NCBI GenBank assembly: GCA_026770705.1
Contig: JANJGN010000036.1
Coordinates: 2,046,001-2,110,000 of the forward strand
Direction of reading: 5' to 3'
Length of the DNA: 64,000 bases
DNA from: Isurus oxyrinchus
Taxonomy: Eukaryota
The notes below the pieces were generated by a model, which made no database searches, was not told where the DNA came from, and worked only from the letters and a program-made list of their open reading frames with translations. Shown here one piece after another: positions 1,961 through 31,962 of this stretch. Numbering within the stretch: position 1 is the first letter of the stretch; every line of letters starts with the position of its first letter. The position numbers were made by a program, and so were the translations under genes.

Positions 1961-2003
1961 ATGAGCGTCATCACTCTCTGCGCCCTGCTCCACCTCTTCC
2001 CAG
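1961..2003 (+). CDS. Gene A exon 1, signal peptide
   Basis: ATG...CCA G|GTTAGA, phase 1. Hydrophobic MSVITLCALLHLFP, homologous to the gene B leader MRFVMSCTLLHVFP. Confidence 0.8.
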
Positions 2004-7427: not shown

Positions 7428-8025
7428 AACATGAACACGGACGTATACAGAGATATAACTGCATACCTAAACCTTGTATAACACTGCAAAATGTGGTTTC
7501 CTCAAACGAACAGAAGCGTCAGGGATCTTATTCTGATTCTGGATCAGTGTCTGTCGAAGGAATTGCTCCCTAATACTTAACTGACCCTTCTATTATTAGA
7601 TGTTAGTGCGGTTTCCAGTTAGATCGATAATGAGGACCGGATTCAAATTAAGATGATGATTACATGCTCTTAATGCCCTCTGTTTACAGAGAGACATATC
7701 CCTTGCAATCTGAAGCTAAATGCAAAGAAAAATATCAAACAAGCATTGCTGGTTTTAAATCTAAGAATGAGACATCACCTTCCTGAAACATATAAGATTC
7801 TGAGGGAGCTTTGAAAGGGTAGATGTTGAGAGGCTGTTTGCCGTCGTGGGGAATCTGGAACTAGTGTTCACAGCTTCAGAATGAGGGTTTCCCATTTACA
7901 ACTGACATGAGGAGATGTTTCTTCTCTCAGATTGATTTTTAAATTGTCCTGACCGGAGAGCATTTGAAGCTAGGTCAGTGAACATGCTGAAGTCTGAGTT
8001 AGACAGATTTTTGATTGACAAGGTA
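7428..8025 (+). repeat. ~590-bp direct repeat, copy 2
   Basis: Matches 853-1440. The CR1 3' end continues to ~8150 in this copy. Confidence 0.85.
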
Positions 8026-9468: not shown

Positions 9469-11603
9469 GTATTGAGGAGATTGGATCAGGAATTGTGCAT
9501 ATCAAGGTGCAAGTCTGGTGAGGTTATTGAAACTTATATTACTTTACTGAGACTTTATTTTTGGGGTAATTTTCATGGCGTCCCGTTACTGAATGTTTCA
9601 CGTGGTTAACAGAGAGTTTGGGTCAGTCTGTAGCATCTGATTTTATGTCAAATCCCATTCGTCTCTGTAACTGGAATCGGGACATAGTCCTCATTCTTCT
9701 CCCGATCTGATAATATAAATGATAAGCTAATGTCCAAGATAGAATTTACCTGTCAGACTTTTCTGCGAATTTCCTGTTTTTTCCCCTTCCAACGATCTCA
9801 TTTAATTTAGTTTATCTGAATAATGAGGACATTCTGCCCTCCCCTGCCTCTCCCCTTCCTCTCACCCCCACCCAACCGTTTTGCTTTCATATATTAGCCA
9901 TTGGAATTGCAGAAAAGGCCAATCCCAACACAATATCATTTTACAGTTATGGCAAATATTTTTATTTTGTGAGTGACAAATATGGAATCAGTTTGGNNNN
10001 NNNNNNNNNNNNNNNNNNNNNNNNNNNNNNNNNNNNNNNNNNNNNNNNNNNNNNNNNNNNNNNNNNNNNNNNNNNNNNNNNNNNNNNNNNNNNNNNNNNN
10101 NNNNNNNNNNNNNNNNNNNNNNNNNNNNNNNNNNNNNNNNNGTGTGTGACTGTGTGTTTGTGTGCCTATGGGTGTATGTGCGTGCGTGAGTGTATGTAAG
10201 TGTGTGTGAGTGTGCGTTTGTGTGCCTATGGGTGCATGTGTGTGTGTGTGTATCTGTGTATGTGCGTGTTTTTTTGTTTGTGTGCATGTGTGTATGTATG
10301 TGTTTGTGTCTGCGTGTGTGTAGTTTTGTGTGTCTGTGTGTGTGTGTTTGTGTCTCTGTGGGTATGTGTGTGTGTGTTTGTGTGTTTGTGTGTTTATGGG
10401 TGGATGTGGGTGTCTGTATGTATGTATGTGTGTGTGTGTGTATGTGTGTGTGTATGTGTTTGTGTGTGTGCATGTGTGTGTGAATCTGACTGTCCATACC
10501 TCAGTGGGTCGTTGTTTACCTCTGTCTCCACCCACCTCCATCACCCATCTCCACGCCCCTCAGAGTCAGAAAGGGAGGGTTCGAGTCATCTCGCCAGAGA
10601 TTTGAGCAATAAGTGTAGACTGACTCATCACTGCAGACCTGAGGGATTGCTGCACTGACTAAGGTGCCGCTTTCAGATTCTGTGTTAAACCTTGGCCCTT
10701 TCTGCCTGTCGGTCGGTGTGAAAGGTGCATCGTTGCTATTCCGTGAAGAAGTGGGGTGGGGATTGGGTTCTCTCCTGTGCCCTGGGTGATATTAAAATCT
10801 CTTGACCAACATCTAAAAACACATTTTTTAGGTCATAATCTCATTGTTTTTTTTCCTGGAATCTCACTCTGCACAATATAGCTGCCCCGTTAACAACATT
10901 ACAAACATTGAGTGCACCATAAGAAGTGTCTGAAAAACAAATGTGGTTCCTGAAACCTTGAAAAGCGCGGTATTAACACAAGCCTTTTAATTGTGTGTGT
11001 ATGTGTGTGTGTGTGTTACTCTTTCTGGCTATGATTAGTTTTGTGGGATTTCCCCAACCACATAGATGGCATAGAGCAAAACATGGTGATCTGATTGGCG
11101 AGTTAACATCAATGCAATCCAATAAAATTGAGATAGATCATTCCCATTTTCTGATTACACCTTGGTGATTTCTGTATTAAGTTGCTTTCCGAATTCTGCT
11201 TCTCTATTCCAATACATTAGTTCAGGCAATTCTTGCAAAGGCACATTTAGCAAATCAATTATAAAACTAAGATAGGGAGCAATGAAAGCAGAGATAAGAA
11301 TACATTTCAAAAGACGAGCATATTTGTGGTAGAAAAAAATGCAAAGATATGGAGAAGGAGATGAGTTCACTGGGACGAATTGGGTTACTTTTTCAAAGAG
11401 CTGGCACAGACACCATGGGCAGAATGGCTTTCTTCTGTGTATTCAATGATTCGATCAAGCTCTATTACACAGATAACCTGACCTCACCTGTAACTATTTT
11501 TGAATGTGAATACACTTCCAGTCTCAGGGCGGACCTCCCTAAACCCTTCCTGGAGTTTGCTGCATTAGAAAATAAATCATAAAGAAGACGGGTCACAGAT
11601 AAG
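9469..11603 (+). pseudogene. Remnant D: last two cytoplasmic exons of a gene C-type paralog, in inverted orientation
   Basis: 9469-9517 is homologous to gene C exon 25169-25218 (49 vs 50 nt). 11522 onward reads tct cag ggc gga cct ccc TAA, matching the gene C terminal exon with Tyr->stop plus a frameshift. Intron and 3'UTR homology spans ~9440-12500 vs ~22740-25250. Confidence 0.75.
9997..10485. repeat. (TG)n-rich microsatellite with N-run 9997-10141
   Basis: Direct inspection. Confidence 0.9.
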
Positions 11604-14600
11604 AATCGGGACATTTTCTCTGTGCTGAATTATGGAGGAGGCAGGATTTGCCAAATAACCCACAGCCTCGTGGAAGCAAAATGGAGCCATGGAGACACCC
11701 ACGAATCAACAAAACTACTCCCACCAGAATTTACAAAAAACCGTCTCATTTCGTGAAATGTGAAATAAGTTGTTTTCAGGATTGTTAAGGATATTCCACT
11801 GTATTCACGTAATTCAAATGTGAAAGAAACACTGAACAAATATTACGGACATTCTCCAGTTTCTCTGGACCTTTTCTGCTGATCCTGAAATTCCAGTTAC
11901 TGACAGGATGTTTATTTCTTTGCAAACGTCTGTATGTAAGTAAGTAAAATAAATTATTCTTCCATTATAACGATTCATTAAAGGTGTGTATCGATCAACA
12001 ATTTGCTTATAATTCAATGCCAAATGGATGAAACTGCAGCTTGTGTTGAGCAGACAGTATCAACACTGGGTTGAGATGGTTTTGTGGTGGTGTTCTCTGC
12101 CTGAGATGTAATGTGTCTAATCATTTACAGAATTAGAACACAGCAGGAGAGGGGCACGGGCCCTCATGCTGGAACTTTGTGATGACGCCATTTTACTTTT
12201 ACACAGTGTGTTCTGCTTTGAGCTCAGTTTTAAATACATATCTCAGAGTTTTTGGTGCAGTGCAGTGTGTTTTGGAAGAAGAGGTGACTTTGCAGATATG
12301 TTTCCCCAAGCCGATCACCACTGGGCCATTCACTGCTCATGCCTGGAATGTTGTAGACAAATCAATAGGGATTTACTACTATAGCAATCCAATGATCATC
12401 GTACCACTAAACTGCCAGCCTGGCAGGGTGCAATCTAGATTGATGGTTTTTTTCTGTTTGTCTGTTTTTATTTCCCTATTTCCCTGATCTCAAGTTTGCA
12501 AAATTTTGCAACAATGTTTTCAACCAGAGAGATAGAGGATTACACAGGACCCGGGCACACTTCATTGACGATCAAGGTCATATCAGTCTATATATTCTTA
12601 TTCTGTTTATTCGGGAACCAAAAGGTATTGACGGATGAGATAAATAAGCAACATAAACAGCTCCTGTTCAGGTCACTTTCAAGATCCATCTCGCAGAAAC
12701 TGTCCAATAAACCTGTCGATTATTTAACTGAGCTCCTGACTGTGGTGACCTTGCTAATGTGAATTTAGGTTGTATTGTAGTGTTATTACAACAGGTATAA
12801 GTTTACCAGGTCTCGGGTTAAGAAGGTTAAACTACAAGAATAGGTTGCTCAGACTATGCTTGCATTCCCTCCATGATGATATTTCTGGTCCACACGAGCC
12901 TCCTCCCACCCTCTCTGCATCCCACCCCATGAACAAATCATTACATTTTTTTTTCTATCATATAATTATTCAACTTCCCCTGAAAAGCACGGCTGATAGT
13001 CACCTCAACTTCTCCCCCTGGGATCGATTTCCGCATTATTCCCACTCTCTGTCTAAAGAAGATTATCATGAATTCCCCATTGGATTCATTAGTGAATATC
13101 TTAAACTGATGGCCTATCGTTCTTGTTATCCCCTCAACTATCCAATCATTTCATAATTTTGAAGGTCTTTATCAGGTCAGCCCAGCAGTTTACTCTTTTC
13201 TAGACAAAAGAGTGCCAGCCTGTTCAGTCCTACCTGAAATCATAAACTCTCATTTCTGTTATCATTCTAGTAAAATTGTTCCCAAATTTTAAAGCGCACA
13301 CATCTGCTCTATAAAGATATCCTGAATTGCAAATTCAATGAGCATATTTGGACTGAGCGACCAAACAACTTCCAATAAGAAACGCAATGCTTGGATTTCA
13401 AAATCTGCTTTAATGGGTTGGTAAATTGGACACTGATGCGCTCTTTCTTGCTCAAGCTGAAAAAAAGATCCGCAATTAAATTAAAAAAAAAAACACTAAC
13501 ACAAGAATGTAACACGTATAGAAACTGAGCAGAAAGTTAAAATGTCCGAATATCAACATCCTCTTGAAATGGAGCAGGTTCTATTAGGCATGCAGTCTCT
13601 CCAGTAGGCGATAAATTGCCACATTGCTACTGATAAATCTGCGTTCAGAATTTGGGATGACAATCTATTAGGAAGGTTCACACATCCAGGCTTTCCACCA
13701 ATGAGGACGAAAAAAGAGGAAACTTTCCACTGCACGTCATATTCCGGAAGCAGCATATGAGCTGTCAATTTCCATTGTTATCAGAGTGTAGGGTCCGCAT
13801 TAAACGCTAGCCGAGCATAAAGAGTCTGCAACAGAAAGCACGAACAGTGATCATGAGAAACAGCATCATCAGGGGGCGGAAAGAGGACATTCAACCCTTC
13901 GAGCCTTTCCCGCTAGACAGTTAAATAATTCTGGATCCGCATCTCAACCCTGTTTACCCTCCTTGCTACCATAACACTAAATCCAACGAAAATCTATCAC
14001 ACCGTGTTTCAGCATTTTCGGCTGACATCCCGTTTAAATTTCTTTACATGTATTGTCACAGTGCTATTGAAAAGTCTGTTATCTTAAAACATGCGCCATG
14101 TAAAGTCTCATACACACATATGAAAGCAACCAGAAATCTTCCAATTTGAATTTAAAATCCGTCATCCATTATGTTTACACGCTAACAACAATTCTATTCA
14201 TAGTTACCGCCTTTTCTTCCGTACTTGCTCTGGAATATGTCAGTTCCATATCAATGTTCATGCTGCCTGTTAGAAAGAGGATTTTAAAATGAGTGTAACT
14301 GTTCACAGTTCACACTGAACCGGCTGAAAGTGTACACAACCTTGCGACAATTTGATAGATTAAGAGCGCTCCTGAGTTACAACATCTCCCTACAATCTCT
14401 ACCTGTCTGCCGTTCTTGCAGATCCTGCTCCCGGCGAGCAGGACTAACGCCAGAAGGAGTGGCGCCGCCAACAAACTCCCAGAATGCGAGAAATTGCAGG
14501 GGGCAGGTAGCGGTGAATCTGGAGAGCAAATAAAAAGCATTGTATTTGAGGATAAATCCCGTAACTGAAGCCTTTTGACTCTGACAGAACGTTCAAGTAG

Positions 14601-14729
14601 ACTCTAGCACACGGGAGCTAGAGATTGGCAAATAATGTCAGTCTTGTCAATATCATCAGCATCTCCAGGTCATTAAAAAAAATAAGCTGAAGCAGATTAG
14701 AAAAGTGAAGCGAATTTACAAAGCTGAAA

Positions 14730-14970
14730 TCAGATGGATGGATAAGGAAAGAGAGAGATGTAGAAATTGGGAGATAAATAGAGTTGGAGGGCGTATTATA
14801 GAGAGAGATAGATGGATGGATCGATAGGAGAGTTGGAGAGATAGAAAGACACACGGGCAGTTAGACAGAGAGGCAGATAGGTGGATAGACTGATACACAT
14901 ATAAATACACACATACACATATAAATACATACATACATACATACATGCACACATACATACATATATTTAA
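14730..14970. repeat. GATA/GGAT and CATA low-complexity microsatellite
   Basis: Direct inspection. Confidence 0.7.
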
Positions 14971-15449
14971 GCACAAGAATATGTTAGAACTACACAAGAA
15001 TGACCAGCGCGGTCTGGGAAAGAGGATGAAGCAATGGGGCCTCCAGGTTTCTGCTGACTCTTCAAAGTCCACATTGCAATTCAGCACTTCCAAACCCCAT
15101 CAAACTCATCCATCTCCTGCATTCATTTAACTTTCTATCCATCTTCCCACATCTCCTACAAGCTGCGCACTTTATTATTTCCCAATAGCCATCTTGTGAG
15201 GCACATGAAGGCCAACGAATTATCTTAAATATCTATTCAGACATTTCTTCAGCATAAAAGCTCTATTCAACTCTTTAAACGTAACCACAATTCCACAAAC
15301 CGGTGCGTGCTGACCTTAACTACCTCTTCTACTGAGAAATGCTCACCTATTTCATTTAGAATAATGGATGGTAAAGGTTTGCCCTCCAGTCCTGTTAGAC
15401 TGACTTGTTTATAGTTCCCCAAATGACTTCTATACTCTGCTTTTGATGC

Positions 15450-15635
15450 AAATTTAGGATTAGAAGGTTTTTTGCGAGGAATGATGAGGATTAGTGTTAG
15501 AGTTCTGCTTTGGTTTGGGTAACAGTTAGGGCTAGCATAAGGGTTCGGATTAGGGTTGGGTTTATGGTTCGGATTAGGATCAGCTTTAAATTCAGGGTTA
15601 GGATTAGGATCAGATTAGTGTTAGTGCTAGTTATA
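15450..15635 (+). repeat. Degenerate (TTAGGG)n-like repeat
   Basis: gttagggctagcataagggttcggattagggttgggttt...agggttaggattaggatc. Confidence 0.6.
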
Positions 15636-15699
15636 CACTCACTGGAAATGAGTTTCTAATTCTGACAGAGGAGCAGAGAGAAATGGATTACAAACAAAC

Positions 15700-16290
15700 A
15701 AACACTTGGCATGACAGACAGAGGTTATTAAGGCCACAAAAAGCAACCCACCCAGCACTGGGAGCAATACCTGAATAAATTGAATTGAAAAACAGGAAGG
15801 CTTTGTTGAAGTTATCATTAGCTTAGTTGGACATCACTTACAGTCCTGTGAACAACCTCATCTCCAGATTATAAAAAGAATATAGAGGATTGGAAAGGGG
15901 GAAACAAAGAACCTTTACCAGGATGATATCCACACTGAGTGATTATAATTATCAGAAGGCTTGAACAGGCTGGAGTACTTTTCTCTACAAAGGAGAAGAC
16001 TGAAGTTTGACCTCATGGAGATCTTTAGTCTTTTGAACTGATTTGTGGGGATAGATGTAGAAACAATTTTTCTACATGTGTAGGGTCGAGACCCGGTCTC
16101 TGGGCCATCAATATTTGACAGTAACTTATATCTAAAATCGGGGATTCAGGAGAAAGGTATATACCCACAGAATAGGGAGAATGTGGAGATCGTTACCACA
16201 CGAGCGGTTAAGGTGAATAGCAGGGATGCATTTAGGGCAAAGCTAGATAAACACATGAGGGCAAAAGGATTGTGTGATTTGAAATGGGAA
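15700..16290 (+). mobile_element. Decayed CR1 LINE 3' fragment
   Basis: ggcttgaacaggctgg...ttttctctacaaaggagaagactga, a CR1-type ORF2 tail. Confidence 0.6.
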
Positions 16291-19200
16291 TTGATAGTGC
16301 TTGTGCGGACCACGGACAGCAGCACGGAGCAGAGGAGCCGAAGGATCTGTCTCTGTCCTGGAAACACTGCAGAATATAGATAATAACAGAAAGCAATCGG
16401 CAGAGCAAGTAGTGAAAGGAAAACTGTGGTGTTATTTGATCATTGATATTCTAGAATGTTCTTTCTCCCGCCACACACACCAATCTCAAGGAGACAGATA
16501 GATGAATATTTCATAAAGCTTTACACTAGGAAAATGAGATGTATGAGAGAAGGGTCATGGGCACATGGGAAGAGGGAATATTTAACGTACAAAGAGATAT
16601 TGCCAAAAAATAAGCGGCATATAAACTAAAGCAGGGAACTATTAATAGCTACCTCTCTCAGACGAGGCACTTTCACTAAGAAAAGTTTCACTGGATTTGA
16701 TTTAAACGATGCAAGTAAAGCGAGCTCCGCTGCTCCAAGTTCCCACACTCAGAATTATGTGGCTCCTGACGGCACAGGTTCCATCCGTCTCGAGGGTCAC
16801 AGAATCGCTCTGTCCCTCGGTATCGTGCCCGGAAACATTCCAGCGGACAGCAAACGAATCGGTGTCCACACCCTTCAGCAAACACACCAAAGGGACCCTT
16901 TCCATTGAGGCAATTTCAGCTGGTGGCGCAGTTAAGAGGTAGATTATTCGAGGTCCTGGTGGGATGGAGAGATAGGATTCAATCGCTATTGGGTATAAAC
17001 TGCTGATTAGTTATGGTGCAAAGTGCAAATTAATCGTTATTTCTACCTGTAATGATCAACTTGTAACCGTTTCCAAACATCTAGGGCATTCCGCTGAGCT
17101 CCTTGGCTGAACAGTGATACACACCAGAATCATTGAATGTCCATAATGACCAGAGGATAGAGAGTGGATTTCTGGTCAACCTCTCCCGAAAATCTCCCGG
17201 TTGGATAGATGTATTTTGTCACGGTGTAATCAAGTTGTAGATTCTCCCGTTGCTGATATTGCCAAACAGCCTGTGTGACAAAGCACCTTGTAGGTACTTC
17301 CAAGCGAGAGACTCTGGGCTGCCGGAATCTGGGACAAAACTGCCTGAGATAAAGTAACTGACAGGGACAAAAATCAACAATAGAGGTTCTGTTATGGCAG
17401 CGAAAGAGAACATGCTTCCTCTGCAGAATTGGCTACAGCAGTAAACTAAGAAGCAGATCTACCTCTCATTCTTCATAAATCCGGTGGACTCAAGCGCTGA
17501 AGGTTTTATTTGAAACCGTTGCAGACACCAGGGTGAAAGAGAACCGGGTTTGCAGCCGGTGAAGGTTTTTTACAAGTGCAGCCGCAGTTGTAAAACAGGG
17601 AATTCGGCGAATTTGCGCACAGCAAGATTCCACAAAGAGCAATGTGATATTCACCCAGAGTGCATTTTGTGACGTTGTTTGTAGGGGGAAAATTAGGCCC
17701 CGGGGAGGCCGATGAAAACAATCATCCGCCGGATCATCCACCGCCCCCTATCCACCACCACCCCCCCACCCAACCCCCAACAGCCGGCGTCGGCCCGGCT
17801 TTTTTCCTCCCTGGGGAAATGGGGCGGGTTTCATGCCAAAGGTGCAGACAGGTGATCTCGATTCACCAGGTCATCCGATAAATTGGAGAATGTTGACATG
17901 TGATCGAGTATGATCAGGTGGGATAATGTATTTCTTCAACATGAAGTTAATATGATAGGATGTAACTGTGGGAGTAATTTTACACCTGACTGACTAGCTC
18001 AGTGGCCTTAAACTTGCAATGAGACAATTCTGAATGAGGAGTGAAGAAGACACAAACCTGGAAACACATGCAGCAACGTGCAGGACATTACGAATCTCAT
18101 GTTTGGTGCTCTCAGATAGGTCGCTGTGGTATTTACATCGTCTCTTCTCTCCGGTGTCTCTGTGCTCGGCCTCGGGACCTGGAAGTCATTGTGAAAATGC
18201 ACAGTTTGTAGAGATTAGGTGCACTGATTAAAAATAGCATACCGGAAAAATCAGCCCCTGTAACTGTTGGCTGAGGGTTTCCTGTTTACAGGTTTGGAGC
18301 CCACGCACAGCTCTGCCTGCAAAGGGCAACACGTTACAGCTCATGTGAAAAGCCTGTGAAAGGCGGGGCGCGGCCCCGAGTGTCTCAAACCGTAGGCAAA
18401 AGGCAATGGTGCTGAATTAAACAACATTAATGCTTGTGACGTTCGTGTGGGGGCAGGGTTAACATCCCTAATTCCGAGCGTTGTGTTTAATTCCTCCACA
18501 ACACACTAATTTATTCTGGTCTACACAAAGAATACATGCCAGATTGAAGAAACCTGAAATCAGATGTTAATATTTTTGTTACTGTTTCACCCAATACCTC
18601 TCTGCCCCCTGTCACTTTGTGTCAGAATTATTCCCTCACTCGCACTCCAGCCCCTTGAACCAATTACCCGGGATGTCGAACATAGCCATTCTCTGAGAGG
18701 GGCCCAATATGGCCAGGAGCAGGTATGGAAAGCTACTACGAGGTGGAAAGTAAATCGAGGTCTGTTTCGATTTAAGTGCTAAAGTGTCCCTGAACAAGCT
18801 GGAAACATTCCAGCCCTTGGCCATGCAGCAGCCATACAGTCACAAAACATTTAGATATATTTACCATTCATTGTTGGAGAAACTTGGACAGAGTGGAGCA
18901 AGATCCCTGACGGTGAAGCATGTGGAACGGGATATACAAAACAGAAGGGAATGTACCAAACCAAGCTCTACTGTAGAGAAAGTGTGGTGGTGCACGCCGC
19001 TCTGCTCAGATGGATAGACAGGGGTTATAGAATGAAGGCGGCTGGACAGAGTTAAGGTATCGCTCAACAGTCTGATTTAATGGCAGCACAAACTCAATTG
19101 ATGGTCTGAATGCCATCCTCCTGCTGCATTGTTCCAGTAGGATTAGGAGGTCAAAATATTAAAAGACAAATTGAGGACTGATATCAGAAGGTCTAGGACA

Positions 19201-19882
19201 ACCAGACTGATTAACATTGGGAAATGTTCTCTGGGTAGGGCGAATGGTGTGGCGAATTGGGGGTGGGGTATTGCTGGATGGTGAAACCCCCTGAAATTAT
19301 TTAGGAAACAGGTGTGGTTCTGAAGTTTGAGGGATGCATAACGTTTCTGGATGGACAAACAGTGTATAGTGAATGATCTTTTCCAACTGCATCTTGTATA
19401 AATGCTCTCCAAGTTATCTTTACAATATCTGTGCAAAATCTAATTTCACAGCAGAATAAGACGATGATAATTTGAGAACATTTCTATCAACTAGAACAAG
19501 ACTGACAAGGGATTGTTGAGCGGATTGGAGTTATCAGTATTCCTAACAACAACTGCCTCCAGCTTTTAACGGTTTTGAAATTAAATCTCACTGAAACATC
19601 GTCTCAATTTTTGGTCATGCATTTGACTGATCTTCTGATGTGGGGAGTAAATTGTGTTAACGTTTCCAAATTATTGACATCACCAACAATCCACATTCAG
19701 GCACAGCTATGGGTTGTGCTATAAGCTGTAAAGACACTAACACTAACTCGAGTGGTGTGGCACAAGAGGGCCCATTCTCAGGGTCAGGAGGAGATAGCTG
19801 GGATGTTGGACTAAAGTGCACATTGAAAGAGCCGGCACAGGGATAACCTTCAGCAATCAACCTCTGCCTGTACTGTCTCGAT

Positions 19883-20205
19883 CTCACACCAAACACACAC
19901 AAACACACGCACAAATCTCAAACACACACGCACCAAACAAACACACACACACAGACACACATACACAGACACACACCCCAAACACAACACGCACACCNNN
20001 NNNNNNNNNNNNNNNNNNNNNNNNNNNNNNNNNNNNNNNNNNNNNNNNNNNNNNNNNNNNNNNNNNNNNNNNNNNNNNNNNNNNNNNNNNNNNNNNNNNN
20101 NNNNNNNNNNNNNNNNNNNNNNNNNNNNNNNNNNNNNNNNNNNNNNNNNNNNNNNNNNNNNNNNNNNNNNNNNNGAGACACATTAACTATACACACACAG
20201 AGACA
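19883..20205. repeat. (CA)n-rich microsatellite with N-run 19998-20174
   Basis: Direct inspection. Confidence 0.85.
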
Positions 20206-20615
20206 CGCTCAGCATAGGGCAAGTCTGTCACCTCTACAGCTCCAGTATCCTCCATTTGACAGTTGTTAACTTTTACAGTAACACAACAAAGATGCTCCCG
20301 ATATCATTCAAGATTATGCATAAAGATTAGCATTTATGCAGTGACCCAGAGCAAGCTCTGAAATGACATAGATGAAATAAAGCATTTGGTGAAATATCCG
20401 TTTGCGGTCCGGTATAAAATGGTTAAATGACAACTCAATTGTTTTGGAATGAGAACGGCATGTTTGAACTTATGGATGGGGCAATGGCGGCTCCTGTTAC
20501 AACAATACCCAGCGGCTGGGAAAGGCCTCAATCAGTGAAGCAAGCCGCACTGCACTCTGGGAGAACCTGCCGCGCATGCTCAGCTCAAACTCCGCCCAGC
20601 ACGGCCCTTTTTACA

Positions 20616-20918
20616 TTACTCATGCGCCAAAAACCGGGCAGAATTTTGGTTCCCTCTTGAGTCTAAAGAGTCTCTTCTGCTTCGTTTGACGACTTGATGA
20701 ATAAAAAAATAAACAGAAAAGACGTCACGCTCAGATGACGGCCGCTTGCCCCGCTTGCGGGCCGGGGCCCAAGATTGACAAAGAGCAGCGCCTGGGTTCC
20801 GGGAGGGGTCAAGAGGTGAATCCTGGATGATCAGGCAGGCGAGGAGGGTGGGATTCTTTTTTGATCCCTTTTCCAATGCAGCCATGTCCAAAGAGGCGTA
20901 GAGAGGTCCGACCTGAGA
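20616..20918 (-). CDS. Duplicated copy of the gene C terminal exon (SQVGPLYASLDMAALEKGSKK plus a novel extension); candidate alternative last exon
   Basis: ~20855-20997 is near-identical to ~23623-23766, including the acceptor cttcccag. Phase 0, open for 100 codons. Confidence 0.45.
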   Translation of the reverse strand, partial: SQVGPLYASLDMAALEKGSKKNPTLLACLIIQDSPLDPSRNPGAALCQSWAPARKRGKRPSSERDVFSVYFFIHQVVKRSRRDSLDSRGNQNSARFLAHE

Positions 20919-23606
20919 CTGGGAAGCACATTTAACATTGATGTTCAAAAATACTTTGAGAATACGCGTCAGATTATCTCGGCCTGCAATCGCATTCCAT
21001 CCTTCTTTCGAAATTGTTCCCCTTCAGATCTGGCCACACATGATTGCGAATTATACAAATTTCAACCTATCCCTTTCTCTATAACATGAATCACTGGGAC
21101 ATAAGTTTGCACATTTCACTCAGTTTAAAGTGAGTTTGCTGATTGGTGCACATGGGCACTTTTGGTTGAAATAGAAACACAAACGTGAATTTCCACAGCG
21201 CCTTCAATGAGCTCAGAGGATCACAAAGTTCCTTCCATTCAGTTGAATAATTTCTGACGTGTCATCTCAGCTCTTGTGTAGGAAATGAAGCAGCCAATTA
21301 GGGCGCAGCAAGCTCCCACAGTGTGATTATGAGCAAATGTTGATTGAAAGAAAATATTGCCCCGAGGACCGGGGAGGGGTGAGTTGGGGGGATTGGGAAC
21401 TGCACGCATCCCCTCCCCTAATTCCTGCTCCTTTTATTCTTCCAATATTGCATGTGGAATATTTTGGGATAGATATTGAAGGCAAGAAAGAATAAAAATT
21501 GGGAGGCCAAAACAGGCAGGCCAAAAGCAGCATTGAGTTGGGTATCATGAGCTAAAATAATATACAGACTGAGATCTGGCTGTTGGACCATGCGTATCAA
21601 TGTTGCCATGGGTTAAACTGGACTGATAAATGTTTGATGGCTTGCAGCAGCTTTTAAATGGACGGACCGTACTGATCACCTCAGCCCGCCCCCCCTCCCC
21701 CCTACCACCGCCGCCCCGCCCCCCCTCCCCACTACCACATCCCCAATCTTCATGGAAAGGAACATAACGAATTTGCCTGATTTGCCCTTCACGCCTGCTC
21801 CACCACTGAATAATGGCTGGCCTTCTGCCTCAACTGCACTTTCTCTCAATTCCACTTGTTCCAAAACTCTACTGATCGCTGCATTGAACGCACGCGGAGA
21901 CTGGGCATCCACAGCTCTCTAGCTGGAGAATTCCTAAGTTTCACAAACCTCTTAGTGAATAAATTTCTCCTCAACTCAGTCCTGAATAGGTAACACCTTA
22001 TCCTGAGATTTGATACCGAGTAATGGACGCTCCAGGCATGCCGGGGGCTGGGTGGGGTCGAGATTTGGAAAACCTCTCAGCATTAACCCTGTCAATTCCT
22101 TGGAGAATTTTACATGTTTCAATGAGATCACCTCTAATTCTTCTAAGCTCCAAAATCTATAGACCGATTCTACTCAATCTCTCCTCATTGAGCTACTGCC
22201 CCCATGCCCTGGACTCCCTGCTCCACTAGAGGAAACACTTTCTCTCTATCGATTCTACTAAATCAATTTACCATATTAAACTCCTCAATCAGGTCACACT
22301 TTAACCTCTCACCTTCGAGGAATGAAAGCCTAGCCCGTGTAACCTGTCCCAGTAATTATAACCTTATATTTCCTTTATCTGCCTGCTGAACTTAGATTTG
22401 GTTTATATAACCCAACAGTAGAAGCTAAATTCACATCCACGAGAATGCTACTGCTAAAAGTTTATTTTTACCCGCAAGGGATTTATTGGATATTTTCGGG
22501 GAGATGGATCTTGAAAAAGCCTTAAAAGGGAGCTCTTTGTTACTCTGGAACCTGACCCGTTTGTATCTGCTGGTTCTGGATTAACGAGAATTGGAACATC
22601 TAGACTGATGTGACTTTGATCGGTAAAGCAATGAAGCAGGTGTGGTGTCCTCCTCCTTCCTTCCCTCTCTCTCACTCTCTCTCCCTAACTGACTATCGTG
22701 TTGCTAATGTTTGCAAATCTAGGATTAGGAAAACAGTAATATCTAGGCTGAAAAATAAATTCGATCTAGATTGCATTCCATCATGTTGGCAGTTAACATT
22801 ATACAATGATAATTGGGTTTCCATGGCAATACATTTCTATCAATTTGCCCACAATATCCCAGCCATGAGAAGGGAATACTCCAGTGGTGGGGATTTCTGG
22901 GAACAATTGCTCCTCGGTCAACTGTTTTTTTTCCAAAGCAAACTGCACTCACTCTAAGATTCTGACTTGTAGGTTTAAATTTAAACACAAACAAAACCGA
23001 CTGTGTAAAAGTGAAATTGAACCTTCGTAAGTTTGCTACATCGCCTTCCAGTTCTGTTGTGTTCTAATCCTGTAAATCATTAACACAGCTCCTCTCAGAC
23101 AGAGAAACCCACAACTACCAGCAACTCAACCCAGGACTGATATTGCCTTTTCAAAATAAATTGCAGTTACAGCCAGGTGACATTTAGTTATAAGCTACAT
23201 ATTGATCAGAACAAACTTCTACTGTGTCGTTAAAATTGAAGAATAATTTATTTTATTTATATACAGACATTTGCAGGGAAATAACAATCCTGTCAGTAAC
23301 TGGAGTTACATGGTCCGCATAAAAGATTGAGAAAAACTCAACGGAGTCCCGAACCTTTGCTCAATATTACTTTCACACATGAATTACACTAACACAGTGG
23401 AATATCCCTCGCAATATTTAAGGCAGCCTATTTCATATTTTTTTTAAAAAAATGAGGCAGTCTCTGTAAGCCCTGACGATTGCATGGGGAAAGCTTAACT
23501 TTTTGATTCTGGTCTCCATGGCGCAACGTTTATTTCCATAATGCTGTGGGTTCTTTGGAAAATCGTCTCTCCTCCACCATTCATCGGAGAGAAAACACCC
23601 GGATTC

Positions 23607-23687
23607 TCAACTGCGACCCGCCTTCTTTTTTGATCTGTTTTCCAATGCAGCCATGTCCAAATAGGCGTAGAGAGGTCCGCCCTGAGA
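23607..23687 (-). CDS. Gene C terminal exon with YxxL motif (PLYAYLD)
   Basis: accag acceptor, phase 0. Followed by a 3'UTR that is conserved in remnant D. Confidence 0.7.
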   Translation of the reverse strand, partial: SQGGPLYAYLDMAALENRSKKKAGRS

Positions 23688-26600
23688 CTGGTAAACACAT
23701 TTAACATTGATGTTCAAAAATACTTTGAGAAGACGCATCAGATTATCTCGACCCGCAATCGCATTTCATAAAATCATAGAATGATACATCAAGGAGGAGG
23801 CCATTCGGCCCATTCTGTCCCTTCCGGGCTTTTTGAAAACGCCATCTAATTAGTCCCACTGTCCCCTTCTCTGACCCCTTACCCCAACTATTTCCTGCCC
23901 TTCAAGTCTTCATTCTTGAAGTTACTTTTGATTCTGCTTTCATTGCAGTCTGTATCGATTTGACATTTTTGTCAAGAATTACCTGAATAAAAGTTTTGTA
24001 ACAGATAAGCAAAATTCGGAAAGCAATTAACACAAAATTCACCAAAGTTTATTCAGAAAACTGGAATGGTGACGCTATCGATTTGAATGGATTACTCTGC
24101 TGTTCACTGGCCAATTCGGTTATCGTGTTTCGCCGTGTGTCTTGTACAAGATAGAATGATGCACAAAATCAAAATAATTTCGTTTATATGTTCCTTTCAC
24201 GTCTTCAAGAGGGCACAGAGCACTCAAAGGCACTTCTCAGAAACGTAGTTTCTGTTCGTCGTTTATGATATGCGGCAGCCATCTTGGGCATAGCATGATC
24301 CTTTAAAAAGGATTTTGATAATGGCCCAGATGACACATTTTTTGAGATTTTGGTTGAGGGGTTAAATATCAAACAGGACCCAGGCGAGAACCACGCCCTG
24401 CTCCTTCTCCAATACGGCTGGCGACATCTTTCAGCCAACCTGAGGGCGCAGCGGGAACTCCGTTTAAAATTTCACTTGAAAACAGTATCTCTAAATTGCA
24501 ATACTCCCTCAGCCCTGCACTTGAATGTCAGTCTAGACTAATTGCTCAAGTCTCTGGAGTGAGGCCTCCTTGGATTTAGAGGTGTGTATGGGGATTTTGG
24601 GTGGTGGGGAGGGGGAGTAGGGGGGGGGTGGGGGTAGAGAGATACATGAATACCCATTGAGTCAAGGCTCACAATCACACTCAGTCTCACAATCAAACGC
24701 ACACACAGAGTAGCACACTCATATTCTCCAGAACTTATTACTTCTTTGTTAACTTACTTCCCTGGGTTTGGCCTTATCTTCACTCTAATTCCAGTGGCTA
24801 AGATATTTTGAAAAAACACAATGGAGTGGACGATGGAGGAAGGAGGACCGTGCAGGAGCGGATCTGGACTCACCGTGGAAATAAGCAAGGTTTATATAAA
24901 ATCTCGGACAGCAGGACATCCGGAATATAAACTGCAGGGTATCGGTAATACAGACATAACAGACATTCTACCAGGAACAGATGGGTAGAGGGCGGGTGGA
25001 ATTGTACTGATTTCAGTTAGAGGGAAAGGAATTGTGACACAATTTCAGCTGCTCGAGACTGTGACCTGCCCTCTGTTAACCATGTTAATATCCGGCATAG
25101 GGCGCCATGGATTTATCCCAAAACTCATGTTTTCCTGCATATTATTACAACAGTTTCAATGCTCTCACCTGTATTCCACCCTGATCTGTCCTATTCGCCG
25201 CTGTTTGACGGTGATCACCTGTGTGTTAATGGTTAGGATATGAATTGAATTGTCACCCCAGACGACAAAGTCTAAAGTTACTGACAGAGGATTGCGTGCT
25301 AATGACCACGAATTCACCAATGGCTCCAATACATCAATGGGCCACAAACGACATTGGGCCCCCAAACCGTGAAAACTCATCAATTTGCCATTTGTTCCTA
25401 AAACTTCAATGAAGCCCAATTCGACAATGGTGGTTAAGCACTCCTAACACCGGTGTCTGTCGTCCACTCTATATTTGGTATATTACTGCCAATATTAAGA
25501 AGCAATAAATTGCCTTTTTATGAGACCAACAGATACTTCAATAACAAAGAGGGGGAAGTTCTGGACCTTATATTCGGAATTGAGTCAGGGCAGGAGGAAG
25601 GCCTATCAATAGAGGAACATTTTGGCAACACTGAACATAACTCAGTTAGATTTAGGATAGCTATGGAAAAGGATAAATTTGGGCTGGGAGTAGAAGTTCT
25701 AAACTTGGGAACGGCTTATTTTACTAAGACGAAATACGATTTGGCCCAAGTGCACTGGGAGCAGCTACTTGCAGATAAAACTTTGTCAGAGCAGCAGGAG
25801 GCATTTAAGGAGGAAATGGCGATAAAACAGGGCAAATATGTTCCCGTGAAGGCATGGGGTTGGGGGTGCGAGGAGCAAGTGCAGGGAACCCTGGATGGCA
25901 AGGGGCATAAACGTTAGGATTAAGGCAAAAAGAGATGCTTATGGCAAATACCGAGGACTCGATACGGCAGTGTCACTTGAGGAGTGTAAAAGGTGCAGGG
26001 TGGATCTTTAAAAGGAAATTAGGAAAGCTAAGAGAGTGCATGAGAAAGCATTTGTGGGTAGAACAAATGAAAACCCAATGGGGTTTGTTTATTTAAATAT
26101 ATAAAGGGCAAGAGAATAACTAGGGGAAGAATAGGGCCAATTATGGACCACAGAGGTAATCTATGTGTGGGACCAGAAGATGTGAGTGCAGTCCTCAATG
26201 AACACTTTGCTTCGGTCTTCACAATGGGAAAGGACAACACAGGTATAGACATCAAAGTGGAAGACCGTGAAATATCTGAGGCAATTAACATATACTGACA
26301 GGCGGTACTAGAGGTTATAGCGGCCTTAAAACAGGATTAATCCATTGGCCCCGATGAGACTCATCCCAGGCTGCTGAGGGAGGCAAGGAAAGAGGTATCA
26401 AAGAATCTGGCAGTAATTTTCAAATCCGCTCTGAGCACAGGCGGGGTGCTCAATTTGTCCCATTATTAATATAGGGAGGAAAAGTTAGACAAGGGAATTA
26501 CAGGCCAGTCAGTCTAACCTCGGTGGTGGTGAAGCAACTAGAAATAATTCTGATGGGTGGAATATACTTGCACTTGTAGAAACACTGATTAATAAGGGAT

Positions 26601-29600
26601 AGTCAGCATGGTTTTGTTCAGGAGCTTGGGGTACATATCCACAGATAACCGAAGGCAGCCGGGCAGGTAGATAAGGTGGTTAAGAAGATATATGACATGC
26701 CTTTAATAGCTGAAGTGTAGAATACAAGAGCAGGGAGGGTTTGTTGGAACTGTTTAAAACGCTGGTTAGACCCAACTGGAGTACTGCATGTAGTTCTGGC
26801 CCCCACATTATATGAAGGATGTGATTGCACTGGAGGGGGCGCAGAGGAGATTTACCAGGGTGCTGCCTGGTCTTGAGAGTCTGAGCTTGAGGGAAGATTG
26901 AATGGGTTGTGGTTGGTTTCCTTGGATCAGCGAACATTGAGAGGGGAACATATCGAGGTCTATAAGGTTATGAGAGACATAGGTATGGTAGATAAGAAGG
27001 CACTTTTTCCATTAGTAGAAGGGCAATAACCAAGGGGCACAGATTTAAGGTAAGGGTTAGAAGACTAAGGGGGCCTTTGAGGAGAAATGTTTTCGCCCTG
27101 AGTGTGGTTGGAGTATGCAACTCACTGCCTGAAAAGGTGGTTGAGTCAGCAATTCTCGTCACATTTAGAAAGCATTCAGATATTCATTTGCGTTGCCATA
27201 GCCTCCAGGGCTATAAGCCAAGCGCTTGAAAATGGGATTAGCGTAGTCAGATCTTTGTTGACCGGCGCGGACACGATGGGCTGAATGTCGTGTTTCTGTG
27301 CTGCAAACGACAATGAGTCTATGAGTCTATGAAAATGATCGTAGAACATTCTGATTGTGGGAAAAGTACTCTGCAGACAGTAAGAACATGTACACATATT
27401 GCAAATGTTTCAAATCAAAGAAATAGGCGACAGCCATTCTCTCGTTCTTTCCCCAGGGCAATATCGTGACCAATCACTTAAACTGTCTGGTTTGAATTTT
27501 AACAAAGCTTCGCAGTTAACTTTCCATGCAAACACCTCTGCCAGTCACGAACCACATGCGAAACATTCTGTACTCTCTTCTCATGAAATATAAATTGTCT
27601 CCCTTACATTTGGTATTCTTGTGATTTCTTCTAATGACTGCAAGTCCAAAAGCTTCGACATCATGCTCTTTACTTTGGCAATTTACCCAATTTGGCATTT
27701 AATCTCTTCCAACATGTCAATGCAACTTACCCGATTGCCGTTGATGCGGCCTCTCGGTTTGCCTTTTCTCTCTCAAGCTAAAACTGGATACGGACAGAAA
27801 TATCAAACACGTGTTAGGTCTTGTAAGTCCTGGTTCAGGCGCCGGAAATAGTTGAGGAGAGAATTGCCCAACGATTTAGAATCTAACTTAAACAATCATA
27901 GAACATTTCTAAATAAGCTATTTGAATCGGTGTTGGGGTTGAACTAGGTTTGACACACTGCAAAATAGAAAAAGATTGTTGGTGATGAATTTTGAAAATG
28001 GTTAAATTACTCACTTTTCATTGGGGGATCTCCTGCCTCGCTCTTCTGGAAGAAAAATGTGTAATTTGTTATTGAAAACCCCGAGAAGGGAATCGCATTG
28101 GCGAAATAAGTATTGAAATGTCCCTTATAACCATTAATCCTCACCTGATCTGCTGTTTTTACGAATCCAAATGGAAATAAGCACCAAGAGTAGAATCAGT
28201 ACCAGCAGGGTGGTTATTGCAACAGGAAAAGCCAGTTTGCACCAACCTACAGAGACAAAACATTCAGAAACTGCTGGGGCTCTCTGAAGGGAAACGTGAT
28301 CCAGTTAAAAAGCTGGAGCCTCAAACTCGGGTGTGAAAGTAAATTTTTAAAAAGTCAGTGGGACTGAGAGCGGAGAATGGATGCGCAGATTGGACTCAAC
28401 GGTGCTGCATTTGCTAGTAGACATGAATTAACTTACAGCACGGCCAGGATTTTTCCACATGCTTAGTGTATCAGTATGTATGATCAAAAGCATCATACCA
28501 ATGTTTTGGTTGAAAACTGAATCTTAGAATGATACGGCAAAGAAGGAGTCTAACAGCATATGTGGAAAGGAAGACAGAGTTAATGTTTCGAGTCCATATG
28601 ACTCTTCTTCAGATCCACGGACTCGAAGCCATAACTGTTTCTTTCTCTCCACAGATGTTCTCAGACCTGCTAAGGTTTTTTCCAGCAGTTTTTGTTTTTG
28701 TTTCAGATTTCCAGTATCCGCAGTGTGTCGCCTTTATTAAAGAAGGAGTCTAGTCGGCTCATCGTGTCTGACTTGGCTATTTGAAAGAGCTATCCAGTTA
28801 TTCCTACTATCCCTGTTCTTTAACACAGAGCACTGGACATTTCCCCCATTAAGTATTTATTCGATTCTCCTTTTGAAAGTTACTATTGAACCTGCTTCCA
28901 CCGCCCTTTCAAGCAGAGCCTTCCAGATCAGAAACACTCGCTGAGTAAAAAAAAAGCGTCATCTCCTCCTCTGGCTCCTTTTTGCCGATTGTCTTCAATG
29001 TACCCCCAGGTTACCGATCCTCCTGCCACTGGAAACAGTTTCTCTTTATTTACTCTATCAAAGGCACTCATGATTCTGAACGCCTCGATTATAAATCCTC
29101 TTAACCTCCTCCGCTCTAAGGAGAACAATCCCAGCTTCTCCAATTCCTCCAGATTAACTGAAACTAATTCTGATTAGAGGTCTATTTCTGGTCAATCTCC
29201 CCTGCATCCTCTACAAGGCCCTGACATCCTTCCTAACCAATAGTGCCCAGAACTGAGGACAGTGCTACAAACCTGGCCAGCCAGAGGTTTATTAATTTTA
29301 AGCCTATCTTTCTTGGTTTAGTCTCGATTCCTCCATTAATCAAGTCAAGAGCTCCACGCCTTTCAAAAACAATTTAAGTTTATCATTCCACCTCCAAGCA
29401 TTTATCATATCAGAGAATGATTACAGCAAAGACGGATGACTTTCAGCCCATCGTGTCTGTTCAGGCTCTCTGCAAAAACAACTCACTGAGCTCCACTTCC
29501 CTGCCTTTCACCGTTATCTTGCATTTTGTTTGCCTTTTCAGGTGATTCTCCAATTCCCTTTTGAAAGCAACGATTAAATCTCTTTCCACTACAGTCCCAA

Positions 29601-30599
29601 ACATTCCATTCCTGACCTTAACCACTCGCTGCACAGAAAGGTTTATCAACTTGTCGCTGTAGCTCTTTCTACCAATCAGTTTAAATCAGTGACCTTAGGT
29701 TACCAATCATCCCGCCAATGGGAACAGTTTCTGCCAAACTGAGCTTTACAGAAACCATTTAAATTTGAACACCTCTATCAAATCTCCTCTAAACCTTCTC
29801 TTCTCCAAGGAAAGCAGCCCCAGTTTCTTCAATCAATGCATTTAACTGAAGTTCCTCATCCCAGGAACCCTTTTAGAGAACCAATCCTGCACTCTCCCGC
29901 TTCACATTCTTCCTAAAGTTCTGTGCCCATAACTAGACAGAATAATTTAGTTGAGGCGAAACCAGAATGTTGTAGAGATTAATCATGGCTTCCCTTTCTT
30001 TTGGACTCCCTGCCGTACGTTAAAAGACCAGGATCCTCTATGCTTTCTGCGCTGCCTTGACACGATCTGTGAATTGTGCATCTGAACCCCCATGCTCGCC
30101 CACATGTTTTACATGTGATAAACTTGAACTGATTCGAACAATCCAAATTACCAAATATTCAGATCCTCGGTTTATTGTTACATAAGATTGCTGATATCAG
30201 GGATTAAAAGTAAAATGGATTTTAAGAGGAATTTGGAGAAGATAAATGTGGTTCCGGGGTGTAAAAGAGGAAACTAAATGGATGACAAGTCTCAGCAAAC
30301 ATGTCCATTTTACGGAACAATTTCACTCCTTGGCTGTTGTTTGTTTGCTCGCAAAGCGCATTTAGTTCAGAACTGACCTCAGCCCCATTACAAGATCCAA
30401 TGCATGAAAAGGGCGATGCAAGCAGATTCAATAATGACTTTCAAAGGAGAAATCTATGATTCCAAGGTCTCTGCAAAAATATAAGGCAGAACAAGAAAGT
30501 ATATACAAGAGCAAAAGCCTATCCTGGGCAGGGGAAACAATAATTTATTTTAACATAATTTAACAAGTGAGCGCACAACACACACACGAACATACACAC

Positions 30600-30669
<70 letters not shown>

Positions 30670-31962
30670 CACACAAACACACACATTCAACTTTCGAGTC
30701 AATTGGAGTGCCGACTATGAAATTAATACATCCAAGAGATAAGCCGATATACTTGTACATTATTTCTTGGAGGCCTTCAGTTGACAGTCGGCAGGATCTT
30801 AGAAGCTAGACAATTACTCCAGCTGATACCAAAGTTGAATACAACCCTCCATTGTACAGGTCACAAACTCACTTGCCCATGTCCCTGCTGCCTTGGAGAA
30901 CGACACGCTCTTTGTCCAGTTTTTGCTTAGAGGCCCCAGTTGAACAATACAAGAACAGAGACCGCCGCTCCTCCACGTTTCCCTCGACACCGTGACGTGA
31001 CTTCTGATGCTGTAGGTCCCGTCCGCCTCCCTTGTACCGGGATTCCTCTGTCCCTCAGTGACAAGGCCAGAAATATTCCAGAAAATAGCAATCTGATTGG
31101 AAGAAACTCCACTGACCAAACACACGAAGGGGACGGTTTCCCTCAAACGCAGCTCCCCACGCGGGACAAACACCAGCACAGCCGTATTTTCGGTGGAACT
31201 GTCTGGACAGAGATTGGAACACAGTTAACGATTAAATTGCACCAAATGATAATGCAATGCATTATCTGAATTAATTTCACTTGCTCTCTTGCCTCCAATT
31301 AGTAGCGTGGGTCCATTCTGCAGCGATGCATAGACATCCTTATTAGCACAGTAGTAGGATCCCGAGTCATTCACCTGGACATTGCGAATTTCCAAAATCA
31401 ATACATATTTGCTGTTGCCTTTTTTCGAAGTAAACTTACAGTTAGCCCCCTGACAGGGAGGGATATCGATTAATTTCGGGGCTTCACCAACACGTTGTTT
31501 GTACCAGAAATAGCTAGACACCAATTCCACTTCGTAGTTTTGGTGACAGCCTATTTCCACCGTCTCTCCGACTTCAGCTGTCATTATGAAGGGACTCTGA
31601 GACAGAGAGGGCTCGGATTCTGTAACTAGAGAGACAACTGTTACATTACCATTGATTATTCAGAGATAGGAAGCATCACCTTTAAACAAAATCGCCCGCA
31701 ATTTAAGAAGCGTCTCATTATTGTCTCTAATAATTCTTGGTTAGACTAATTCTGCAATTTGCCTTTTCTTCGCTCTATAGCAGAAAACAGAAAACAAGCT
31801 CACATGCACTCGTCAAATCCCTTCACCTAAGCACCGGGTCACATTTTCAACTCGGTAAACATTCTAGCTGATTTCAGTTTAAAATTCTCCCCCCGCCTCT
31901 TGCTCACCGTAAACCCGCAGCACTTGGAAAATGAGCATCAGAGATAAAGATTCCTTAGACAT
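23607..31962 (-). CDS. Gene C: intact non-rearranging V-C1-TM IgSF receptor of a second chain type (344 aa), with an ITIM-like tail motif
   Basis: Exons: 31908-31962 (leader), 31293-31625 (V, GC donor), 30873-31202 (C1), 28145-28246 (TM), 28015-28045, 27731-27783, 25169-25218, 23607-23687 (SQGGPLYAYLDMAALENRSKKKAGRS*). All phases compatible; 1035 nt, open. Confidence 0.82.
25510..27330 (+). mobile_element. Internally deleted CR1 LINE (endonuclease/RT remnants and 3' tail) in a gene C intron
   Basis: VLDLIFG...EHFGNTEHNSVRFRI and SQHGF remnants, followed by a CR1 3' UTR ending tctatgagtctatg. Confidence 0.8.
28145..28246 (-). CDS. Gene C exon 4, stalk Cys plus uncharged TM
   Basis: tctctgtag|(S)WCKLAFPVAITTLLVLILLLVLISIWIRKNSRS G|GTGAGG. 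Confidence 0.85.
28750..30100 (-). mobile_element. Two tandem CR1 3' fragments
   Basis: EKLGLFSLERRRLRG...; VQRVVKVRNG...AFKRELE. Confidence 0.7.
30575..30686. repeat. (CA)n microsatellite
   Basis: Long perfect CA run at ~30602-30663. Confidence 0.95.
30873..31202 (-). CDS. Gene C exon 3, Ig C1-type domain
   Basis: VPFVCLVSG...IAIFWNISG...DGTYSIRSHVTVSRETWRSGGLCSCIVQ. Homologous to the C1 of genes A and B. Confidence 0.9.
31293..31625 (-). CDS. Gene C exon 2, Ig V-set domain with fused G strand (degenerate J: LQNGPTLLIG)
   Basis: SLSQSP...VEIGC...YFWYKQRVGEAPKLI...NDSGSYYC. The 5' boundary could instead be 31619 (tandem AG). Confidence 0.9.
31908..31962 (-). CDS. Gene C exon 1, signal peptide
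   Basis: MSKESLSLMLIFQVLRVY G|GTGAGC, phase 1. Confidence 0.75.

What the first reader, a model, noticed from the sequence alone, without database searches (positions are those of the whole stretch)
13781..31962. Two divergent chain types in tandem, each with a membrane-proximal Cys: candidate germline heterodimer
Seen: A/B-type and C/D-type chains share a clearly homologous C1 but have very different V domains, TM and tail exon structure (2 vs 4 cytoplasmic exons). They alternate along the locus: C then B on minus, A then D on plus. Each has one Cys just before the TM (GTC, APC, SWC). The V domains of A and C keep WYKQ, with APKLI in C and FGxG in A. Established: these residues form the VH-VL and Valpha-Vbeta interface, and stalk cysteines link TCR and CD8 chains. 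Inference: the two types form a disulfide-linked, TCR-like invariant heterodimer whose signalling sign depends on which A/B variant is used.
Basis: inference. Interest (0 to 1): 0.7.

Follow-up and report, generated by a model that had tools for sequence, protein, structure and literature searches.

The report
Shark two-chain germline immune receptor cluster
This shark DNA holds two kinds of non-rearranging, antibody-like receptor genes from a cluster of more than 150 copies, many broken; the two chain types are predicted to link into one two-chain immune receptor with likely 'on' and 'off' forms, probably an expanded shark version of a gene pair already reported in chicken.

Summary
Partly confirmed. 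The window holds intact gene A (300 aa), intact gene C (344 aa) and pseudogene B; 'D' is only tail remnants. They belong to a 3.5-Mb cluster with at least 172 C1 exons. The two chain types sit mostly head-to-head, not in tandem: 31 of 77 C-type exons have a divergent A-type partner 4.3-5.8 kb away. This window is an atypical, rearranged block without such a pair. The stalk Cys is kept in every open copy and aligned homologue. The V domains carry complementary Leu/Pro interface residues. Both types share a contig in 10 other species, from sharks to alligator. A model of catshark stand-ins passes (0.69, best control 0.29), possibly from likeness to Fab. The receptor is not invariant and not TCR-like in signalling: both chains normally carry an ITIM-type tail. 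B is dead, but A's own subfamily has on-type (TM Arg, Tyr lost) and off-type copies with 96% identical V exons. Probably shark PRARP orthologues, whose dimers were shown in chicken (recalled; orthology not directly tested). This scan noted the same cluster before in other windows.

The parts
1961..2003 (+). Gene A leader exon
   Evidence: GT donor; matches leaders of named homologues
2631..2969 (+). Gene A joined VJ exon (WYKQ..HLQ, FGTG)
   Evidence: V-set E 3.9e-15
3444..3746 (+). Gene A C1 exon
   Evidence: C1-set E 7.8e-05
5609..5722 (+). Gene A stalk-Cys/TM exon with an Arg six residues after the Cys
   Evidence: homologues have Gly there
5859..5917 (+). Gene A cytoplasmic exon 1
6993..7037 (+). 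Gene A last exon; ITIM-type Tyr replaced by Asp
9490..9684 (+).
   Evidence: 68% to 25196-25003
11518..11640 (+). Remnant of a C-type last exon with a stop at the Tyr position (part of D)
   Evidence: 77% identity
13781..18100 (-). Pseudogene B (A-type): leader 18058-18100, V 17047-17357, C1 16653-16955, TM 14403-14518, tails 14208-14266 and 13781-13825; frameshifts and stops; last exon keeps LYARL
   Evidence: also broken in both duplicate blocks
20854..20945 (-). Duplicate of C's last exon (LYASL), possible alternative end
   Evidence: 93%
23607..23687 (-). Gene C last exon with ITIM-type LYAYL
   Evidence: homologous to LYASL exons
25169..28045 (-). Gene C cytoplasmic exons 1-3 (28015-28045, 27731-27783, 25169-25218)
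   Evidence: AG/GT sites, frame open
28145..28246 (-). Gene C stalk-Cys/TM exon, no charged TM residue
30873..31202 (-). Gene C C1 exon
   Evidence: C1-set E 2.7e-09
31293..31625 (-). Gene C joined VJ exon (WYKQ..APK, extra Cys pair, no FGxG), GC donor
31908..31962 (-). Gene C leader exon
   Evidence: identical start in P0001
33525..33604 (+). Probable decayed, inverted C-type TM exon upstream of C, where an A2 partner usually lies (read by eye, weak)
   Evidence: display; like the + C_TM hits upstream of three other partnerless C genes

Best explanation
These are germline-encoded, non-rearranging V-C1-transmembrane receptor genes of two ancient chain types, which likely assemble into a Fab-shaped, disulfide-linked two-chain surface receptor that would signal mainly as a brake through a tyrosine motif on each tail. 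Shown: gene anatomy, the cluster, head-to-head layout, stalk Cys, motif distribution and cross-species linkage. Inferred: a divergent promoter co-expresses the two types; A (VH/V-beta-like, Leu) packs on C (VL/V-alpha-like, Pro); stalk cysteines link them; tail Tyr motifs recruit SHP-type phosphatases. Because intactness is not coupled within pairs, chains would pair combinatorially in trans. A minority of copies, window A among them, gained a TM Arg and lost the Tyr, and would use an FcR-gamma/CD3-zeta-type adaptor as 'on' forms. The family is probably the expanded shark counterpart of PRARP1/PRARP2.
For: 31 of 77 C-type C1 hits have a divergent A-type C1 at 4.3-5.8 kb; 0 tail-to-tail, 1 tandem, 0 same-type head-to-head; label-shuffle null mean 15.3, max 24 of 2000. 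In two contiguous blocks 11 of 13 A2 genes have a divergent C leader. Stalk Cys: 11 of 11 open C, 17 of 17 open A2; 15 of 15 A, 12 of 12 C, 9 of 9 bony-vertebrate homologues. After the conserved Trp, A-type has Leu in 14 of 15 and C-type Pro in 12 of 12; turtle and lungfish C-types keep Pro. Tree: C-type group 91/87, A-type group 91/70, both spanning sharks to reptiles. Both types on a contig of equal length or at consecutive accessions in 10 other species. Complex model of stand-ins: 0.69, best of 3 controls 0.29; mark reached by 51 of 78 solved and 2 of 108 mismatched microbial pairs (eukaryotes: 39 of 65 and 2 of 126); runs agree in at least 85% of contacts, partner pLDDT at least 76; top contact Phe118-Pro66, and both stalk Cys are in the interface lists. 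A1 subfamily: 6 of 13 open with Arg and no Tyr, 3 of 13 open without Arg and with Tyr; on-vs-off nucleotide identity V 96%, C1 96%, TM 84%, last exon 87%. One C copy has TM Arg and a short tail, 96% V identity to an ITIM copy.
Against: The modelled pair resembles solved Fab complexes, so the pass may show likeness only; it used catshark proteins of two species, 66-67% identical to A and C. Of 16 head-to-head pairs fetched only 3 are both fully open (one needs shifted splice sites); 8 have open A2 with broken C, 2 the reverse, 2 both broken, 1 with an A tail break. Window A's subfamily has no divergent C partner (0 of 13) and window C has none. Head-to-head counts are inflated by segmental duplication (three 99% copies of this block). 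Arg with Tyr kept occurs in 2 open A2 copies and in broken A1 copies. The on copies descend from few events. Tree groups are under the star threshold. No protein named PRARP was returned.
Confidence: 0.6

Rival explanations
1. Each chain works mostly alone, as a monomer or disulfide homodimer; the head-to-head layout only marks the unit of duplication, and heterodimers are optional.
For: Open A2 genes persist beside broken C partners in 8 of 16 pairs, and 5 of 11 open C genes have no divergent partner. A single stalk Cys serves homodimers equally. Chicken PRARP is recalled to give monomers and homodimers too (not read).
Against: Leu/Pro asymmetry kept from sharks to turtles; no same-type head-to-head pair; both types stay linked in 10 other species; the model passes for the mixed pair.
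Confidence: 0.27
2. The Arg-bearing, Tyr-less copies such as window A are decaying inhibitory genes, not activating receptors; the family is purely inhibitory.
For: More than half of the C-type models are broken (13 of 24). The on copies derive from few duplications. Arg also co-occurs with a kept Tyr. The basking-shark homologue P0029 has Gly and Tyr.
Against: 6 open copies keep both changes with all splice sites; TM and last exons diverged (84%, 87%) while V and C1 stayed 96% alike; a parallel Arg plus short-tail copy exists in the C type.
Confidence: 0.3
3. One reading: one invariant TCR-like heterodimer from tandem neighbours C+B or A+D, with its sign set by A versus B.
For: Shape, stalk Cys and interface motifs are real; C-then-B order is shared with a basking-shark gene model that reads from C into B's TM exon (P0001).
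Against: B is broken in all three block copies, D has no V or C1; dozens of divergent V domains; C carries its own ITIM-type motif and no charged TM residue.
Confidence: 0.04

Closest known systems
PRARP1/PRARP2 (Fu et al. 2019, PMID 30770416; title seen in the reference list of PMC10751288; paper not held; content recalled)
   Same: A pair of non-rearranging joined-VJ genes; V-C1 outside birds; tail Tyr motif; recalled to form disulfide homo- and heterodimers. Homologues found here in sturgeon, lungfish, amphibians, turtles, crocodilians, lizards and birds, the bird hits without a C1-set call.
   Different: Here at least 172 C1 exons over 3.5 Mb instead of a pair, with on-type and off-type copies, and a C-type V that lost FGxG and gained an extra Cys pair. 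Direct orthology to the chicken proteins was not tested.
Alpha-beta T-cell receptor and Fab
   Same: V-C1 chains, Leu/Pro V interface, stalk Cys, predicted Fab-like packing.
   Different: No rearrangement; no charged TM residue on C or on most A2; long tails with Tyr motifs.
UrIg/UrIg2 of sharks (PMC12227049 abstract, outline and passages; PMC10751288 passages)
   Same: Non-rearranging VJ plus C1-type domains in elasmobranchs.
   Different: UrIg2 is V-C1-C2-C3, homodimeric, linked to Ig/TCR loci; these genes have one C1, two chain types and lie on a contig with APH1 and PRPF3.
Paired receptor families (KIR, LILR, CHIR; teleost NITR, passage in PMC7916673)
   Same: Birth-and-death cluster; near-identical ectodomains with ITIM or TM-Arg forms.
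   Different: Those are single-chain receptors with C2- or I-type domains (recalled); here V-C1 chains predicted to form two-chain receptors.

Membership tests
PRARP | Single-exon joined VJ domain, no rearrangement | tested here: met
   V and J-like strand in one exon; RSS scan gave one weak mismatch hit in A's intron, none for B or C. FGxG only in A-type.
PRARP | V-C1-TM-tail architecture outside birds | tested here: met
   bird homologues lack the C1-set call
PRARP | Two linked paralogous chain types | tested here: met
   linkage in 10 other species
PRARP | Cytoplasmic ITIM/ITSM-type motif | tested here: met
   16 of 16 fully open A2, 8 of 9 fully open C; absent in window A
PRARP | Sequence orthology to chicken PRARP1/PRARP2 | tested here: inconclusive
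   No returned protein bore the name and no chicken protein appeared among the 120 listed of 124 hits; other bird homologues did
PRARP | Location in an MHC-paralogous region | tested here: inconclusive
   APH1 at 9.5 Mb and the only PRPF3 at 7.15 Mb on the same contig; a lizard A-type model is labelled APH-1A. That these mark human 1q21 is recalled; PRARP's own flanking genes were not read.
PRARP | Disulfide-linked dimers at the cell surface; lymphocyte expression | not testable with these tools
   Model only; features recalled from the paper
T-cell receptor | RAG-rearranged V and J segments | tested here: not met
T-cell receptor | Basic TM residues on both chains and short tails | tested here: not met
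   C TM uncharged, four tail exons with Tyr motif
Ig light chain (database label) | No TM or tail | tested here: not met
   TM and tail exons present
UrIg/UrIg2 | V plus three or more C domains | tested here: not met
   one C1 per gene; UrIg2 layout
Paired on/off receptors (works-like) | Near-identical ectodomain with ITIM versus TM-charge forms | tested here: met
   exceptions with Arg plus Tyr
Paired on/off receptors (works-like) | Adaptor binding and opposite signals | not testable with these tools
   needs cell assays

The most novel reading that the evidence does not exclude
Sharks keep a germline-encoded, combinatorial two-chain receptor repertoire: dozens of A chains pair in trans with dozens of C chains into Fab-shaped receptors, and both chain types evolved on and off forms, so the signal is set by the combination. 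It would be a RAG-independent, NK-receptor-like system built on the antigen-receptor scaffold and a living model of the pre-RAG heterodimer.
Probability: 0.3. Interest if true: 0.8.

Novelty: new variant of a known kind. Interest (0 to 1): 0.5.

Why it matters
The receptors of shark natural-killer-like cells are largely unidentified, and the ancestor of Ig and TCR is thought to have been a non-rearranging VJ-C1 gene (PMC10751288, PMC12227049 passages). A two-chain V-C1 family kept linked from sharks to crocodilians and expanded to over 150 copies with on and off forms gives a testable candidate for both questions. The dimer idea itself is probably not new, since it is recalled for chicken PRARP; the expansion, head-to-head cassette and paired forms are what the held library does not describe.

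Tried and rejected
Search for a D gene: no V or C1 exon. RNA: no RNA holder listed. Contigs of four runs laid on C gave mostly repeat matches; one 263-nt contig of a run guessed to be RNA covered 31473-31625 with one difference and stopped at the V acceptor, a weak hint only. Expression of A remains untested. Homodimers A:A and C:C were not modelled (one job only). Named PRARP proteins: none. Papers: Fu 2019, Ohta 2019 and Flajnik 2023 are not held. Eight searches found no description of this shark cluster; subscription papers and supplements, including those of Fu 2019 and Ohta 2019, were not seen and may list shark members. Database names (Ig kappa-like, TCR-like) rejected on anatomy. Haplotype artefact rejected as the sole cause of the triplicated block: three copies all differ by about 1%. 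The first tree run was unfinished; one search is the one cited.
Full report
Observation. The window has three V-C1-TM genes. A (+, 1961-7037) splices to 300 aa over 6 exons. C (-, 31962-23607) splices to 344 aa over 8 exons, with a GC donor after V and a last exon LYAYL. B (-, 18100-13781) has frameshifts and a stop in V, a stop in C1 and a frame-shifting TM exon. A and C are equally distant in V (34%) and C1 (35%).

The cluster. Two searches of the own genome, each limited to 150 scored matches, put all matches on contig C36 between 0.58 and 4.10 Mb. I sorted the union by hand on score and identity into 77 C-type, 13 A1 (window A's subfamily), 12 B-like and 70 other A-type C1 exons, 172 in all, a lower bound. 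Of 77 C-type exons 31 have a divergent A-type exon 4.3-5.8 kb away, none tail-to-tail, one tandem; no same-type head-to-head pair occurs. Nulls gave means of 10.3 (random places, max 20) and 15.3 (shuffled labels, max 24). Duplication makes these copies non-independent. Exon maps of 749 kb show the unit C(-) / A2(+) / A3(+) repeated; in two contiguous blocks 11 of 13 A2 genes face a C leader, with start codons about 2.6 kb apart in the pair read in full. A1 (0 of 13) and B-like (0 of 12) genes have no such partner, nor has window C. The window is thus an atypical block, present three times at about 99% identity, with C open and B broken in all three.

Intactness. A permissive modeller that may shift splice sites by up to 14 nt, so its 'open' calls are upper bounds, scored 24 C and 24 A2 genes. 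C: 9 open, 2 open to the TM, 13 broken. A2: 16, 1 and 7. All 28 genes open through the TM keep the stalk Cys. The tail Tyr motif is in 16 of 16 open A2 and 8 of 9 open C. Among 16 head-to-head pairs only 3 are both fully open and 8 have open A2 beside broken C. Strict one-to-one pairing of neighbours is therefore unlikely; pairing in trans, or homodimers, must cover the rest.

On and off forms. Of 13 A1 copies, 6 (window A included) are open with a TM Arg and Asp for the tail Tyr, 3 are open without Arg and with LYARL, 4 are broken. Between the classes V and C1 exons are 96% identical, the TM exon 84% and the last exon 87%. One C copy at C36:981583 has a TM Arg and a tail cut short by a lost donor; its V is 96% identical to an ITIM-bearing copy. 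Against a clean rule: two open A2 copies and some broken A1 copies have Arg with Tyr kept. That TM Arg recruits FcR-gamma or CD3-zeta and that such Tyr motifs bind SHP phosphatases is recalled knowledge.

Other species. Close homologues come from sharks and rays under misleading names. A profile search and look-ups reached chimaera, sturgeon, lungfish, amphibians, turtles, crocodilians, lizards and birds. A 46-row tree gives a C-type group (91/87) and an A-type group (91/70), each spanning sharks to reptiles, both below the star threshold. The stalk Cys is invariant in 15 A, 12 C and 9 bony-vertebrate sequences. Linkage, judged indirectly from equal contig lengths or consecutive accessions, holds in basking shark, two catsharks, smooth-hound, zebra shark, manta, sturgeon, snapping turtle, Chinese alligator and a fence lizard; for horn shark, white shark, whale shark and bamboo sharks only one type was retrieved, so they were not tested. 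APH1 and PRPF3 lie on the same contig as the cluster, and a lizard A-type model carries the APH-1A label.

Structure. The residue eight places after the conserved V-domain Trp is Leu in 14 of 15 A-type and Pro in 12 of 12 C-type sequences, the heavy/light or beta/alpha asymmetry of antigen receptors (recalled). A complex job on catshark stand-ins (P0031 19-236, P0015 19-242; 67% and 66% identical to A and C) scored 0.69 against a best control of 0.29; that mark was reached by 51 of 78 solved and 2 of 108 mismatched microbial pairs, and by 39 of 65 and 2 of 126 eukaryotic ones; runs agreed in at least 85% of contacts, partner pLDDT at least 76. The tightest contact is Phe118 with Pro66, and Cys235 and Cys240 are both listed in the interface. 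The nearest solved structures are antibody chains, so the pass shows likeness and not that these copies bind. Homodimers were not modelled.

What is known. PRARP is named as a joined-VJ gene in PMC10751288 (passages) and PMC11599192 (one passage). The founding paper was seen only as a title; its pair of genes, Tyr motifs, disulfide homo- and heterodimers and species range are recalled. Architecture, pairing and range fit, so I put orthology at about 0.75, not directly tested. UrIg2 (PMC12227049 abstract, outline, passages) and NITR (PMC7916673 passages) differ in domain make-up. Eight searches found no account of this shark cluster. Earlier notes of this scan on other windows of the cluster reached a similar reading; I had formed mine before that look-up and do not count them as support.

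Verdict. New variant of a known kind, interest 0.5.

Noticed in passing
window 50509-51528 +: Intronless 340-aa frame of a rhodopsin-family GPCR (7tm_1 E 3.1e-20) inside the receptor cluster; a decayed similar start lies near 45.4-45.7 kb (by eye).
   Followed up: partly
window 62275-62502 -: Fragment matching sterol O-acyltransferase 1 (E 2e-23), probably a processed pseudogene piece.
   Followed up: partly
window 7587-12868 versus 34479-22319: Old inverted duplication at about 67% identity; gene C sits in the part missing from the left copy.
   Followed up: partly
window 31293 -: C uses a GC donor after V, also in an intact frame, while most other modelled C copies use GT.
   Followed up: partly
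window 31297-31623 -: Shark C-type V domains carry an extra Cys pair in the C'-D region (residues 76 and 81) and lack FGxG, which turtle and alligator C-types keep.
   Followed up: no
G000:C36 2.05, 2.98 and 3.72 Mb: The window's first 40 kb exist three times at about 99% identity: recent large segmental duplications.
   Followed up: yes
G000:C36 737414, 777929, 1096706 and window 33525: A class of C genes has an inverted C-type TM remnant upstream in place of the A2 partner.
   Followed up: partly
proteins P0122, P0159, P0166, P0173, P0179, P0182, P0188: A third, well-supported V-C1-TM group (99/97) with coelacanth and lungfish members; lungfish accessions lie close to the A-type one.
   Followed up: no
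G000:C36 4.12-4.14 Mb (L087-L090): Zinc-finger-like frames follow the right end of the cluster (by eye).
   Followed up: no
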